Sequence record: LR999871
DNA length: 64,000 bases
Reading direction: 5' to 3' (one strand)
DNA from: Escherichia phage vB_Eco_Jura
In this document: positions 7,700 through 8,382 of the stretch, one piece after another
Layout of the letters: each line of letters opens with the position of its first letter
Position numbering within the stretch: the stretch's first letter is position 1
Notes under the pieces: generated by a model
Database searches by the model: none
Told to the model about the DNA's origin: nothing
What the model saw: only the letters and a program-made list of their open reading frames with translations
Position numbers and translations under genes: made by a program

Positions 7700-7771
7700 G
7701 ATGGTGTAGCTCAGTGGTAGAGCAGTTGGCTGTTAACCAACTGGTCGATGGTTCGAATCCATCCACCATCG
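7700..7771 (+). tRNA. tRNA-Asn (anticodon GUU)
   Basis: Cloverleaf read by eye: acceptor GATGGTG/CACCATC, D stem GCTC/GAGC, anticodon stem GTTGG/CCAAC with loop CTGTTAA, T arm GATGG-TTCGAAT-CCATC, discriminator G; CCA encoded at 7772-7774. Confidence 0.85.
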
Positions 7772-7779
7772 CCAAATTT

Positions 7780-7866
7780 GGAAGGTTGTCAGAGAGGCCG
7801 ATTGTACCTGACTTGAAATCAGGAGGCGCAGAGATGCACCCGAAGGTTCGAATCCTTCACCTTCCA
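7780..7866 (+). tRNA. tRNA-Ser (anticodon UGA), type II
   Basis: Acceptor GGAAGGT/ACCTTCC, anticodon stem CCTGA/TCAGG with loop CTTGAAA, long variable arm, T arm GAAGG-TTCGAAT-CCTTC; CCA encoded at 7867-7869. Confidence 0.8.
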
Positions 7867-7873
7867 CCAAATT

Positions 7874-7946
7874 GCTGGTTTAGCTCAGTTGGTAGAGCAA
7901 TTGCCTTGTAAGCAATGGGTCAATGGTTCAAGTCCATTAACCAGCA
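7874..7946 (+). tRNA. tRNA-Thr (anticodon UGU)
   Basis: Acceptor GCTGGTT/AACCAGC, D stem GCTC/GAGC, anticodon stem ATTGC/GCAAT with loop CTTGTAA, T arm AATGG-TTCAAGT-CCATT; CCA encoded at 7947-7949. Confidence 0.85.
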
Positions 7947-7961
7947 CCAATACAGGTTATT

Positions 7962-8033
7962 AGTGAACACACTATAGAACCTCCCAGCTTCCTCCAGATG
8001 TACGGCAATACATTAGCTGGTAGTGTGTTCACT
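7962..8033 (+). other. long imperfect hairpin A (12-bp perfect outer stem plus 6-bp inner stem)
   Basis: AGTGAACACACT (7962-7973) pairs with AGTGTGTTCACT (8022-8033); inner CCAGCT/AGCTGG (7984-7989 / 8015-8020). Sits 16 nt after tRNA-Thr. Confidence 0.5.
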
Positions 8034-8116
8034 GATAGGTTGTACTATCACAGTCCAGACAATATCTGCGTGACTTAAAAAACAGATGGAGCCAGGTGGA
8101 ATCCCTGGCAATTAAT

Positions 8117-8179
8117 TCCGGTGTAGGTACTAGTGCTGTGCACGACATGAGTGTTCTGGTTCGAGTCCAGACGCCGGAA
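8117..8179 (+). other. truncated tRNA-like element (acceptor + T arm + CCA, no canonical D/anticodon arms)
   Basis: 5' TCCGGTG pairs with 3' CGCCGGA (one G-U), T arm TCTGG-TTCGAGT-CCAGA, discriminator A, encoded CCA at 8180-8182; only 63 nt and no 5-7-5 anticodon arm. Confidence 0.3.
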
Positions 8180-8186
8180 CCAATTT

Positions 8187-8287
8187 GAAAGAACTCTTAT
8201 TTTGGTTACCGCAAAAGAAGTGAAAAATGTTGTGGAAAACTACTTCCCAATTAGGTTCGAATCCTAAACCAGAGTAAGAGTTCTTTC
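8187..8287 (+). other. hairpin B: 21-bp stem enclosing a 59-nt insert with a T-arm-like hairpin
   Basis: GAAAGAACTCTTATTTTGGTT (8187-8207) pairs with AACCAGAGTAAGAGTTCTTTC (8267-8287) with two G-U pairs as RNA. Insert holds GAAGT/ACTTC (8217-8221 / 8242-8246) and TTAGG-TTCGAAT-CCTAA (8251-8267). Confidence 0.5.
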
Positions 8288-8301
8288 GAATTGAAGATTT
8301 A

Positions 8302-8375
8302 CAGGATATAGCTCAGTTTGGTAGAGCGTCTGCTTTGGGAGCAGAATGTCGTAGGTTCGAATCCTGCTATCCTGA
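8302..8375 (+). tRNA. tRNA-Pro (anticodon UGG)
   Basis: Acceptor CAGGATA/TATCCTG, D stem GCTC/GAGC, anticodon stem TCTGC/GCAGA with loop TTTGGGA, T arm GTAGG-TTCGAAT-CCTGC (one G-U); CCA encoded at 8376-8378. Confidence 0.85.
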
Positions 8376-8382
8376 CCAAATT

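What the first reader, a model, noticed from the sequence alone, without database searches (positions are those of the whole stretch)
7700..8378. tRNA cluster (Asn, Ser, Thr, Pro) with each 3' half followed by a long hairpin
Four canonical tRNAs are encoded with their CCA ends. tRNA-Thr, the truncated tRNA-like element and tRNA-Pro are each followed within 5-16 nt by a long perfect stem (12, 21 and 11-13 bp). The regular alternation suggests RNase III-type processing sites or decay-protective structures rather than random palindromes.
Basis: partly seen in the sequence, partly recalled or inferred. Interest (0 to 1): 0.55.

Follow-up and report, generated by a model that had tools for sequence, protein, structure and literature searches.

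The report
Phage N4 tRNA-cluster structured RNA array
The long hairpins after three tRNA-type genes of this N4-like coliphage are real and conserved; they are the closing stems of small structured RNAs lined up head-to-tail with the tRNAs, a poorly studied kind of phage RNA locus whose function is still unknown.

Summary
The window is an Escherichia phage N4 relative (99.9% to vB_Eco_AL25). The finding lies in a 1.64-kb gene-free gap between gp47 and gp48. All four tRNAs (Asn, Ser, Thr, Pro, each with encoded CCA) are confirmed. So are three long helices: HP1 7951-8044, HP2 8181-8293 and HP3 8381-8464 (fold z-scores -6.1, -8.3, -4.8). They are the only large-interior inverted repeats in 64 kb.

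Comparison with other N4-like phages shows they are more than processing signals:
- The HP1 and HP2 helices keep pairing through many compensatory changes.
- The HP2 interior is a nearly invariant tRNA-shaped fold with a T-arm.
- HP3 is 92% identical in phage Pollock, behind a different tRNA.
- The same outer stem carries at least nine unrelated interiors in different phages.
- The same interior occurs inside two different stems.

The "truncated tRNA" is a conserved anticodon-less tRNA-like RNA. It is preceded by a 65-nt two-hairpin motif that is absent from Rfam and also found in lambdoid prophages and phage 9NA.

Best reading: a co-transcribed array of stem-closed stable RNA modules, like T4 rnaC/rnaD. 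RNase III cleavage of HP1 and HP2 is plausible but untested. Function is unknown.

The parts
7700..7774 (+). tRNA-Asn (GTT), CCA encoded
   Evidence: ARAGORN; Rfam tRNA 77.5 bits
7780..7869 (+). tRNA-Ser (TGA), long variable arm, CCA encoded
   Evidence: ARAGORN; Rfam tRNA 50.5 bits
7874..7949 (+). tRNA-Thr (TGT), CCA encoded
   Evidence: ARAGORN; Rfam tRNA 75.8 bits
7951..8044 (+). HP1: 94-nt module with a 24-bp closing helix around a 46-nt interior hairpin. It is the N4 version of the CUAUCAAUGAGUAC.../...GUACUCUUUGAUAG hairpin found in all N4-like loci examined.
   Evidence: Fold z -6.1. Family found in 16 distinct arm pairs with at least 9 unrelated interiors. Arms 88% paired, 9 of 22 pairs with compensatory changes. 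The + strand folds 10 kcal/mol better than the - strand, with 4 G.U pairs.
8049..8113 (+). 65-nt two-hairpin RNA motif. P1 is AGYC/GRCU, enclosing P2 CAGA/UCUG. An A-rich linker UAAAAACAGAUGG follows. P3 has the loop UGGAAUC. Not in Rfam.
   Evidence: 92-95% identical in other Schitoviridae genera. Found in 83 IMG/VR contigs, 15 E. coli chromosomes, mEp390-like phages and Salmonella phage 9NA. Covariation. The covariance model R1 finds one copy in the window at 85.7 bits. No Rfam hit.
8117..8182 (+). tRNA-like RNA without D-arm or anticodon loop. It has an 8-bp acceptor helix, a 5-bp central hairpin (loop UGCA), a T-arm UCUGG-UUCGAGU-CCAGA, discriminator A and CCA.
   Evidence: Annotated 'tRNA-Undet' in AL25 and not called by ARAGORN. 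In 8 phages 99.3% of cells pair and 4 pairs show compensatory changes.
8181..8293 (+). HP2: 113-nt module. A 27-bp closing helix encloses a tRNA-shaped interior: a 5-bp stem GAAGU/ACUUC with a 20-nt loop, then a T-arm UAGG-UUCGAAU-CCUA.
   Evidence: Fold z -8.3. In 9 phages the helix is 92.6% paired, with 10 of 27 pairs changed on both sides; slid controls give 37-50%. + strand -44.8 against - strand -31.2 kcal/mol, with 5 G.U pairs.
8302..8378 (+). tRNA-Pro (TGG), CCA encoded
   Evidence: ARAGORN; Rfam tRNA 71.1 bits
8381..8464 (+). HP3: 84-nt module. A 13-bp perfect closing helix encloses two hairpins, one of them CAGAU-UGGGUC-AUCUG.
   Evidence: Fold z -4.8. 91.6% identical in phage Pollock, where it directly follows the tRNA-Leu CCA. 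Outside the N4 group it was found only in Pollock.
8473..8573 (+). Module U5. Its interior 8479-8567 is 100% identical to Gamaleyavirus PBM-3, but the closing stem differs: GUGGGAUG/CAUCCCAC here, UUUGAGGUG/CACCUCAAA followed by CCA there.
8583..8679 (+). Module U6. It has a 7-bp acceptor-like closing stem UGAACCA/UGGUUCA (UGAGUCA/UGACUCA in relatives) and a T-arm-like GUUGG-UAAGAAU-CCAAC.
8684..8762 (+). Module U7, a conserved stem-closed RNA that is 82-85% identical in Gamaleyavirus and Kaypoctavirus
8825..8854 (+). Intrinsic terminator closing the RNA array: a 12-bp stem followed by a T-run
   Evidence: annotated as a terminator in AL25

Best explanation
The region from about 7650 to 8860 is a rightward, co-transcribed array of RNA genes ending at the terminator 8825-8854. 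Besides four true tRNAs it encodes a series of autonomous, stem-closed structured RNAs. HP1, HP2 and HP3 are not accessories of the preceding tRNAs. They are the closing helices of three such modules.

Proposed steps (inferred):
1. Each module folds co-transcriptionally on itself. This keeps neighbouring tRNA and tRNA-like units from mispairing.
2. The precursor is cut into units by the host tRNA-processing machinery. RNase P cuts at tRNA 5' ends. RNase E cuts in the AU-rich CCA-AAUU spacers.
3. RNase III probably cuts in the helices of two turns or more, HP1 and HP2.
4. This releases the tRNAs and leaves nuclease-resistant small RNAs of about 50-115 nt whose interiors are the functional 'cargo'.

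The HP2 cargo is a tRNA mimic with a T-arm, no anticodon and no CCA. The neighbouring 8117-8182 element is an anticodon-less tRNA-like RNA with a CCA end. The most likely role is binding or decoying host factors that recognise tRNA shape, in a locus that also supplies replacement tRNAs and sits next to a Tad2-like anti-defence gene.

Shown here: the structures, their conservation, the covariation, the modular exchange and the strand bias. Inferred: co-transcription, the processing enzymes, the stability and the cargo function.
For: - The tRNAs and hairpins are real and non-random.
- The HP2 27-bp helix keeps 92.6% pairing in 9 phages, with 10 pairs changed on both sides, while the interior is nearly invariant.
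- The HP1 arms belong to a hairpin family present in every N4-like locus examined. They are 88% paired, with 9 compensatory pairs.
- Cassette behaviour, first direction: the HP2 interior occurs inside two unrelated closing stems.
- Cassette behaviour, second direction: the HP1-type outer stem carries at least 9 unrelated interiors. One of these (61 nt) is shared by ECBP1-like, AN24P2 and Pollock phages.
- HP3 is 91.6% identical between N4 and Pollock, against 78% for their tRNA-Pro genes, and there it follows a different tRNA, Leu.
- The U5 interior is 100% identical to PBM-3, with a wholly different but still paired closing stem.
- HP1 and HP2 fold 10-14 kcal/mol better on the + strand and contain 4-5 G.U pairs. 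This indicates + strand RNA rather than duplex DNA.
- All N4-like loci fold into head-to-tail modules of 65-160 nt with short CCA-AAUU-type spacers.
- There is one terminator at the end and none inside the array.
- T4 rnaC, a stable RNA in the T4 tRNA cluster, has the same design: a closing helix and a T-arm near the 3' end.
- The downstream gene 9251-9736 has a Tad2-like anti-defence domain.
Against: - There are no expression or end-mapping data, so stability and processing are inferred.
- The promoter was not identified; no sigma-70-type match lies upstream of the array.
- The HP1 interior has no homologue outside Enquatrovirus, so only its stem is supported by comparison.
- HP3 has a single distant homologue. 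One of its inner stems is weakened there (my own reading of the alignment).
- Within Enquatrovirus one HP2 change is disruptive: 8188 A to T gives a U.U mismatch.
- The compared sequences are related, and the HP1 5' arms were picked by best complementarity. The covariation counts are therefore inflated to an unknown degree.
- No sequence similarity to any host RNA was found that would point to a target.
- The decoy function is speculation.
Confidence: 0.55

Rival explanations
1. Pure processing or insulation signals. The long helices exist only to be cut by RNase III, or to block 3' exonucleases, so that the tRNAs are separated and protected. The interiors would have no function of their own.
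For: - HP1 (24 bp) and HP2 (27 bp) exceed the roughly 20 bp needed by E. coli RNase III (enzyme requirement from general knowledge).
- The helices start 0-3 nt after CCA and sequester the AAUU spacer.
- The helix length of 27 bp is kept in all 9 HP2 homologues.
- The outer 14 bp of the HP1 family are conserved in sequence while the interiors vary.
- Analogous long hairpins precede tRNA-Arg in prophage versions of the locus.
Against: - The interiors are not free to drift. The HP2 interior is nearly invariant across genera, and the HP3 interior is 92% identical in Pollock.
- Interiors stay at 32-67 nt and structured rather than collapsing to a loop.
- HP3 has only 13 bp.
- Asn, Ser and Thr are separated without any hairpin between them.
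Confidence: 0.22
2. Evolutionary debris. The hairpins would be decayed tRNA genes or recombination scars in a rapidly shuffling tRNA cluster, kept only by chance and with no function.
For: - HP2 and U6 contain T-arm-like GGTTCGAATCC-type hairpins, and the locus is strongly mosaic among phages.
- tRNA content differs between genera.
Against: - Decay would not preserve 24-27-bp helices through 9-10 compensatory changes.
- Decay would not keep 100% (U5), 95% (motif) and 92% (HP3) identity across genera whose flanking coding sequence is 73-80% identical.
Confidence: 0.07
3. DNA-level elements. Cruciform or single-strand DNA hairpins would act as promoters (as N4 virion RNA polymerase promoters do), replication origins or recombination sites, or as mobile palindromic elements.
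For: - N4 is known to use DNA hairpins as early promoters (general knowledge).
- HP3 is perfectly symmetric and folds equally on both strands.
- Cassette exchange suggests recombination at the arms.
Against: - N4 early-promoter hairpins have 5-7-bp stems and 3-nt loops (general knowledge). These have 13-27-bp stems and 46-59-nt interiors.
- Conserved G.U pairs and the 10-14 kcal/mol strand asymmetry of HP1 and HP2 fit + strand RNA.
- There is one copy per genome, so they are not dispersed repeats.
- They lie inside an RNA-gene operon bounded by a terminator.
Confidence: 0.04

Closest known systems
Phage T4 stable RNAs rnaC (species 1) and rnaD (species 2) in the T4 tRNA cluster
   Same: - They are small non-tRNA RNAs encoded head-to-tail with phage tRNAs on the same strand.
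- rnaC folds with a closing 5'/3' helix and a T-arm CCGGG-UUCGAAU-CCCGG near its 3' end, as HP2 and U6 do.
- Their function is still unknown.
   Different: - No sequence similarity was detected.
- The N4 modules have much longer closing helices (13-27 bp).
- The N4 modules show cassette-like exchange of interiors.
- Stability and processing are shown experimentally for T4 only.
RNase III processing hairpins (T7 early mRNA sites, stems flanking 16S/23S rRNA, the lambda N-leader)
   Same: They are long helices of about two turns or more placed between functional units of a polycistronic transcript. HP1 and HP2 meet the length requirement.
   Different: - Cleavage was not tested.
- HP3 is too short.
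- The interiors here are conserved, structured RNAs rather than dispensable loops.
Bacterial Y RNA YrlA (tRNA mimic on a long stem, partner of Ro/Rsr)
   Same: HP2 has the same general layout: a long closed stem carrying a tRNA-like domain with a T-arm.
   Different: - No hit to any Rfam Y-RNA model at E up to 1.
- No Ro/Rsr gene was recognised in the four flanking ORFs scanned; the rest of the window was not screened.
- The Ro-binding motif was not examined.
tmRNA (ssrA)
   Same: Related N4-like phages carry an ssrA-like tag template in the same array, directly after the HP1-type hairpin. The tags are ANDDVVLMAA, ANEEAYLMVA and ANDDVVLMVA. The 8117-8182 element resembles a tmRNA tRNA-like domain in lacking an anticodon arm.
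   Different: - The window has no tag template and ARAGORN finds no tmRNA.
- The acceptor stem has C3-G70, not the G3.U70 alanine identity pair (sequence).
HK022 put antiterminator RNA (candidate relative of the 65-nt motif only)
   Same: It is a cis RNA of about 70 nt with two stem-loops (PMC9378689). In lambdoid prophages the motif lies about 170 nt downstream of a strong promoter next to the repressor gene.
   Different: - The covariance model of the motif finds nothing in the HK022 immunity region.
- The motif also occurs inside the N4 RNA array and in a structural-gene gap of phage 9NA.

Membership tests
Canonical tRNA (the four called genes) | Cloverleaf with a 7-nt anticodon loop, scoring above the Rfam RF00005 threshold and called by ARAGORN | tested here: met
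   50.5-77.5 bits against a threshold of 29
Canonical tRNA (element 8117-8182) | D-arm and anticodon arm with a 7-nt loop | tested here: not met
   Only 29 nt lie between the acceptor stem and the T-arm. The conserved central hairpin has a 4-7-nt loop containing UGCA. ARAGORN makes no call and Rfam gives no tRNA hit. The acceptor stem, T-arm and ACCA end are present.
RNase III substrate | Continuous dsRNA helix of about 20 bp or more | tested here: met
   HP1 has 24 bp with one mismatch and HP2 has 27 bp including G.U pairs. HP3 has only 13 bp, so the feature is not met for HP3.
RNase III substrate | Staggered cleavage in the helix that depends on rnc | not testable with these tools
   Needs in vitro cleavage, or end mapping in wild-type and rnc hosts
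Intrinsic terminator | GC-rich hairpin followed directly by a U-run | tested here: not met
   The terminator scan lists only 8825-8854 on the + strand within the array. HP1, HP2 and HP3 are not followed by T-runs.
T4 rnaC-type stable RNA of a phage tRNA cluster | Non-tRNA gene inside a phage tRNA cluster, same strand, with a closing helix and a T-arm-like hairpin | tested here: met
   HP2 and U6 compared with the T4 rnaC fold. This is architectural resemblance only.
T4 rnaC-type stable RNA of a phage tRNA cluster | Accumulates as a discrete stable RNA in infected cells | not testable with these tools
   No transcript data
Y RNA (YrlA) | Match to the Rfam Y-RNA models; adjacent Ro/Rsr gene | tested here: not met
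   No Rfam hit at E up to 1 over 6500-10000. The flanking ORFs are a Phage_gp49_66 family protein, a Tad2-like protein and two without any Pfam match.
tmRNA | Tag-encoding reading frame and an alanine-identity tRNA-like domain | tested here: not met
   No tag template in the window, no ARAGORN tmRNA, and C3-G70 in the tRNA-like element. Tag templates are present in 16 related loci.
HK022 put RNA (65-nt motif) | Sequence and structure similarity to putL/putR | tested here: not met
   Model R1 finds no match in the 8 kb of HK022 spanning the immunity region; best E-value 6.1
Dispersed palindromic repeat / MITE | Multiple copies per genome | tested here: not met
   One place per record in BLAST. 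No other copies in the 64-kb window.

The most novel reading that the evidence does not exclude
The hairpin stems would be conserved 'sockets' of a phage RNA cassette array, and their interiors interchangeable structured-RNA alleles. These alleles include tRNA mimics, an anticodon-less CCA-ended tRNA-like RNA and, in sister phages, an ssrA-like tag template. They would be swapped among unrelated phages (N4-like, lambdoid, 9NA-like) under arms-race selection. Their role would be as decoys or inhibitors of host tRNA-directed or translation-directed defences. Together with the 65-nt motif, this would be an undescribed class of phage anti-defence RNA locus.
Probability: 0.2. Interest if true: 0.85.

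Novelty: new variant of a known kind. Interest (0 to 1): 0.6.

Why it matters
Phage tRNA clusters are usually read as codon-usage helpers or as spare parts against anticodon nucleases. The non-tRNA RNAs between the tRNAs (T4 rnaC and rnaD) have had no known function for about 50 years.

In N4-like phages these RNAs form an organised, conserved and cassette-like array. Its elements are shared with lambdoid prophages and phage 9NA, and it sits next to a Tad2-like anti-defence gene. None of these elements is in Rfam.

N4 and the BASEL N4-like phages (for example AlfredRasser, Bas69) grow on E. coli K-12, so the hypotheses can be tested directly by deletion, end mapping in RNase mutants and pull-downs. 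The ssrA-like tag template in sister phages would, if functional, be an unusual viral entry into ribosome rescue.

Tried and rejected
- **Rfam, E up to 1, on 6500-10000 and on six related loci.** Only tRNAs and sub-threshold noise were found. No ribozyme, Y RNA, GOLLD/ROOL or sRNA family matched the hairpins or the motif.
- **Host mimicry.** BLAST of 7950-8301 and 8379-8880 against 5,426 E. coli genomes found only the 65-nt motif, in prophages. Nothing matched the hairpins.
- **HK022 put identity for the motif.** The covariance model found nothing in HK022.
- **Terminator reading of the hairpins.** There are no U-runs after them.
- **Dispersed repeat or MITE reading.** There is a single copy per genome.
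- **Coding potential.** Only ORFs of 30-65 aa overlap the RNA genes, so I treated the region as non-coding. The short hypothetical CDSs annotated at 5038-5145 and 5233-5334 of the AlfredRasser locus lie within U5 and U6.
- **Literature searches** for N4 or Schitoviridae tRNA-region RNAs, phage tRNA-like arrays and N4-like tmRNA found no description of these elements.
- **HP3 homologues.** An exact core pattern found only N4 and Pollock in IMG/VR, so HP3 covariation could not be assessed.
- **Protein tools.** Structure prediction and the large protein searches were not used, because the feature is non-coding.
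Full report
**Identity of the window and setting.** BLAST of 7300-9000 gives 98.5-99.9% identity over the full length to 15 Enquatrovirus genomes: phage N4, vB_Eco_AL25, PMBT57, AlfredRasser and others. The finding lies in a 1.64-kb stretch without credible ORFs. This stretch sits between gp47 (6799-7242) and gp48 (8880-9251), on the strand of the middle genes. The virion RNA polymerase gene converges from the other side (9771-20291, - strand). The N4 reference record annotates nothing in this gap. AL25 annotates four tRNAs, one 'tRNA-Undet' and a terminator.

**The observation.** ARAGORN and Rfam agree on tRNA-Asn 7700-7774, Ser 7780-7869, Thr 7874-7949 and Pro 8302-8378, all with encoded CCA. 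The three long helices are present:
- HP1, arms 7951-7974 / 8021-8044.
- HP2, arms 8181-8207 / 8267-8293.
- HP3, arms 8381-8393 / 8452-8464.

Their folding energies are -41, -45.9 and -30.3 kcal/mol, which lie 6.1, 8.3 and 4.8 standard deviations below dinucleotide shuffles. No shuffle did as well. Across all 64 kb only nine inverted repeats have arms of 13 nt or more within 120 nt. These three are the only ones with 46-59-nt interiors, and they lie within 520 nt. The helices are 24, 27 and 13 bp. They start 0-3 nt after CCA. Asn and Ser have no hairpin.

**The hairpins are modules of a longer array.** Folding the gap with a 160-nt pair-span limit gives a chain of stem-closed units separated by a few bases: Ser, Thr, HP1, a two-hairpin motif, a tRNA-like unit, HP2, Pro, HP3 and three further modules (8473-8573, 8583-8679, 8684-8762). 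The chain ends at an intrinsic terminator at 8825-8854. Nine other N4-like loci fold into the same kind of chain with different content. Spacers are often CCA followed by AAUU. From general knowledge of E. coli tRNA maturation, that is the type of AU-rich single-stranded site RNase E cuts downstream of CCA.

**HP2.** Homologues were found in N4, Moonfish, G7C and five IMG/VR N4-like contigs. Results for the 9-sequence alignment:
- The 27-bp helix pairs in 92.6% of cells.
- 10 of 27 pairs carry changes on both sides.
- Sliding the partner by 1-3 columns drops pairing to 37-50%.

The interior is almost invariant. It has a 5-bp stem GAAGU/ACUUC (one compensatory A-U to G-C change) with an 18-20-nt loop, a CCAA linker, and a T-arm UAGG-UUCRAMU-CCUA that runs directly into the 3' strand of the closing helix. 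That is the order of a tRNA body with a very long, closed 'acceptor' helix and no CCA end.

In the five IMG/VR contigs the same interior sits in a different closing stem (CUAUCAAUGAGUAC.../...GUACUCUUUGAUAG) and at a different place in the array.

**HP1.** That second stem is the HP1 family. A hairpin with this outer stem is present in every N4-like locus examined. There are 16 distinct arm pairs and at least nine unrelated interiors of 32-67 nt. One 61-nt interior is shared by ECBP1-like, AN24P2-like and Pollock phages. N4's HP1 differs from the consensus stem by three compensatory double changes and shares the 3' flank GAUAGGUUGUACUAUCA. The arms are 88% paired, with nine pairs changed on both sides. 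A caveat applies: I chose each 5' arm by best complementarity. The HP1 interior itself has no homologue outside Enquatrovirus.

**HP3.** It is 91.6% identical in phage Pollock, which belongs to another subfamily. There it follows the CCA of tRNA-Leu with the same junction CCAAAUUAGUGC. In Pollock it is joined directly to the homologue of module 8583-8679, and the 8473-8573 module is missing. The tRNA-Pro genes of the two phages are only 78% identical. No further homologues were found.

**Strand.** HP1 and HP2 fold 10 and 14 kcal/mol better as + strand RNA than as the complement, and they contain 4-5 G.U pairs. One G.U pair is kept in 8 of 9 HP2 homologues. HP3 is symmetric. This favours a + strand RNA role over a duplex-DNA role.

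**The 'truncated tRNA'.** Element 8117-8182 has an 8-bp acceptor helix, a 5-bp central hairpin with loop UGCA, a T-arm, discriminator A and CCA. It has no D-arm and no anticodon loop. In eight phages 99.3% of cells pair and four pairs show compensatory changes. The single unpaired cell is this window's own C at 8136, where AL25, N4 and AlfredRasser have T.

**The 65-nt motif.** The tRNA-like element is preceded by a 65-nt motif (8049-8113). Together they form the most conserved non-coding segment of the region: 92-95% identity to Gamaleyavirus and 87% to Kaypoctavirus, against 73-80% for the nearby coding sequence. The motif has two hairpins with covariation (CG to UA in P1, and three covarying pairs in P3). 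It has no Rfam match.

A pattern search finds the motif in several other places:
- 83 IMG/VR contigs, mostly ~40-kb contigs; those examined have lambdoid-type contexts.
- 15 E. coli chromosomes, where the two loci examined are prophage regions.
- Three other enterobacterial species.
- Salmonella phage 9NA, in a 204-nt gap after the capsid genes.

In the prophages it lies about 170 nt downstream of a strong promoter next to the repressor gene. It is followed by a hairpin with a stem of about 20 bp. That hairpin has a conserved base CACAAC...GUUGUG and variable interiors. After it comes tRNA-Arg or other modules, then a terminator. So the pairing 'structured unit followed by a long hairpin with a variable interior' recurs outside N4-like phages. 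The motif is not HK022 put.

**Interpretation.** The data show conserved + strand RNA structures arranged as independent modules, with both stems and interiors under selection and exchanged as cassettes. I therefore read HP1-3 as closing helices of small structured RNAs that are co-transcribed and co-processed with the tRNAs. The closest known analogues are T4 rnaC and rnaD. T4 rnaC folds with a closing helix and a T-arm near its 3' end.

It does not explain the conserved interiors, and it cannot be tested here.

Function is inferred only. HP2 and the 8117-8182 RNA are tRNA mimics that cannot decode. The array also supplies tRNAs and lies next to a Tad2-like gene. A role in occupying or decoying tRNA-recognising host factors is therefore my preferred guess, held with low confidence.

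**Novelty.** Non-tRNA stable RNAs in phage tRNA clusters are known, and the N4 tRNAs are annotated in several records. I found none of the following in Rfam or in the searchable literature:
- the conserved long-stem modules;
- their cassette behaviour;
- the anticodon-less tRNA-like RNA;
- the 65-nt motif shared with lambdoid and 9NA-like phages.

I rate the finding a new variant of a known kind.

Noticed in passing
window 7389-7515 and 7516-7642: A perfect 127-nt tandem duplication lies just upstream of the tRNA cluster. Each copy holds a 9-bp GC-rich hairpin (GCGACTGG...CCAGTCGC). All 15 close relatives have a single copy. tRNA-Asn starts at 7573 in AL25 and at 7700 here, a difference of 127. 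It could be a real variant or an assembly artefact.
   Followed up: partly
L006 (phage PBM-3) 2227-2329; also L005/L096 (Pollock), L007/L081 (KP8), L034, L043, L052, L072, L080, L089, L097, L098, L100-L102: Related N4-like phages carry an ssrA-like tag template in the same RNA array, directly after the HP1-type hairpin. The sequence AUAAAU-GCA AAC GAU GAU GUU GUU CUG AUG GCA GCC UAA UAA encodes ANDDVVLMAA. Variants encode ANEEAYLMVA and ANDDVVLMVA. E. coli ssrA encodes ANDENYALAA.

Rfam tmRNA_permuted scores 32.7 bits, below its threshold of 47. A tmRNA-type T-arm GUGGGUUCGAUUCCCAC follows. ARAGORN calls no tmRNA. The window lacks this segment.
   Followed up: partly
L010 8830-9260; L008 3700-4400; L009 3990-4330; L094 (phage 9NA) 2498-2640: In lambdoid prophages the 65-nt motif is part of a non-coding unit of about 400-700 nt. 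The unit starts at a strong promoter beside the repressor gene, or is inserted antisense between the terminase and portal genes.

The motif is followed by a hairpin with a stem of about 20 bp. That hairpin has a conserved base CACAAC...GUUGUG and many different interiors. Then comes tRNA-Arg or other modules, and a shared terminator. The unit is unannotated and absent from Rfam.
   Followed up: partly
window 9251-9736 (+): The second gene after the RNA array (N4 gp49) has a Tad2-like (Thoeris anti-defence 2) domain, E 8e-24. gp48 (8880-9251) belongs to the Phage_gp49_66 family. The RNA array may be part of an anti-defence neighbourhood.
   Followed up: no
window 8571-8580 and 8865-8882: CACCTCCTTA, directly after the 8473-8573 module, equals the 3'-terminal anti-Shine-Dalgarno sequence of E. 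coli 16S rRNA (from my own knowledge). The 18-nt stretch 8566-8583 is 78% complementary to the gp48 ribosome-binding region at 8865-8882 (pair I4). It is not conserved in PBM-3 and may be chance.
   Followed up: no
window 8479-8567: This 89-nt interior is 100% identical to Gamaleyavirus PBM-3, and 98.9% identical over 89 nt (about window 8479-8567) to Uz-1. The helix that closes it is entirely different in sequence: GUGGGAUG/CAUCCCAC here, UUUGAGGUG/CACCUCAAA followed by CCA there. Conservation is far above that of neighbouring genes. The function is unknown.
   Followed up: partly
window 8136: This genome has C where AL25, N4 and AlfredRasser have T. The change breaks one pair (C.A) in the otherwise fully conserved central hairpin of the tRNA-like RNA.
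   Followed up: yes
window 9745-9762: A bidirectional terminator hairpin GCCCCTCTAGTGAGGGGC lies between gp49 and the converging vRNAP gene. It gives a weak STnc100-like Rfam hit of 27 bits, below the threshold of 47.
   Followed up: no
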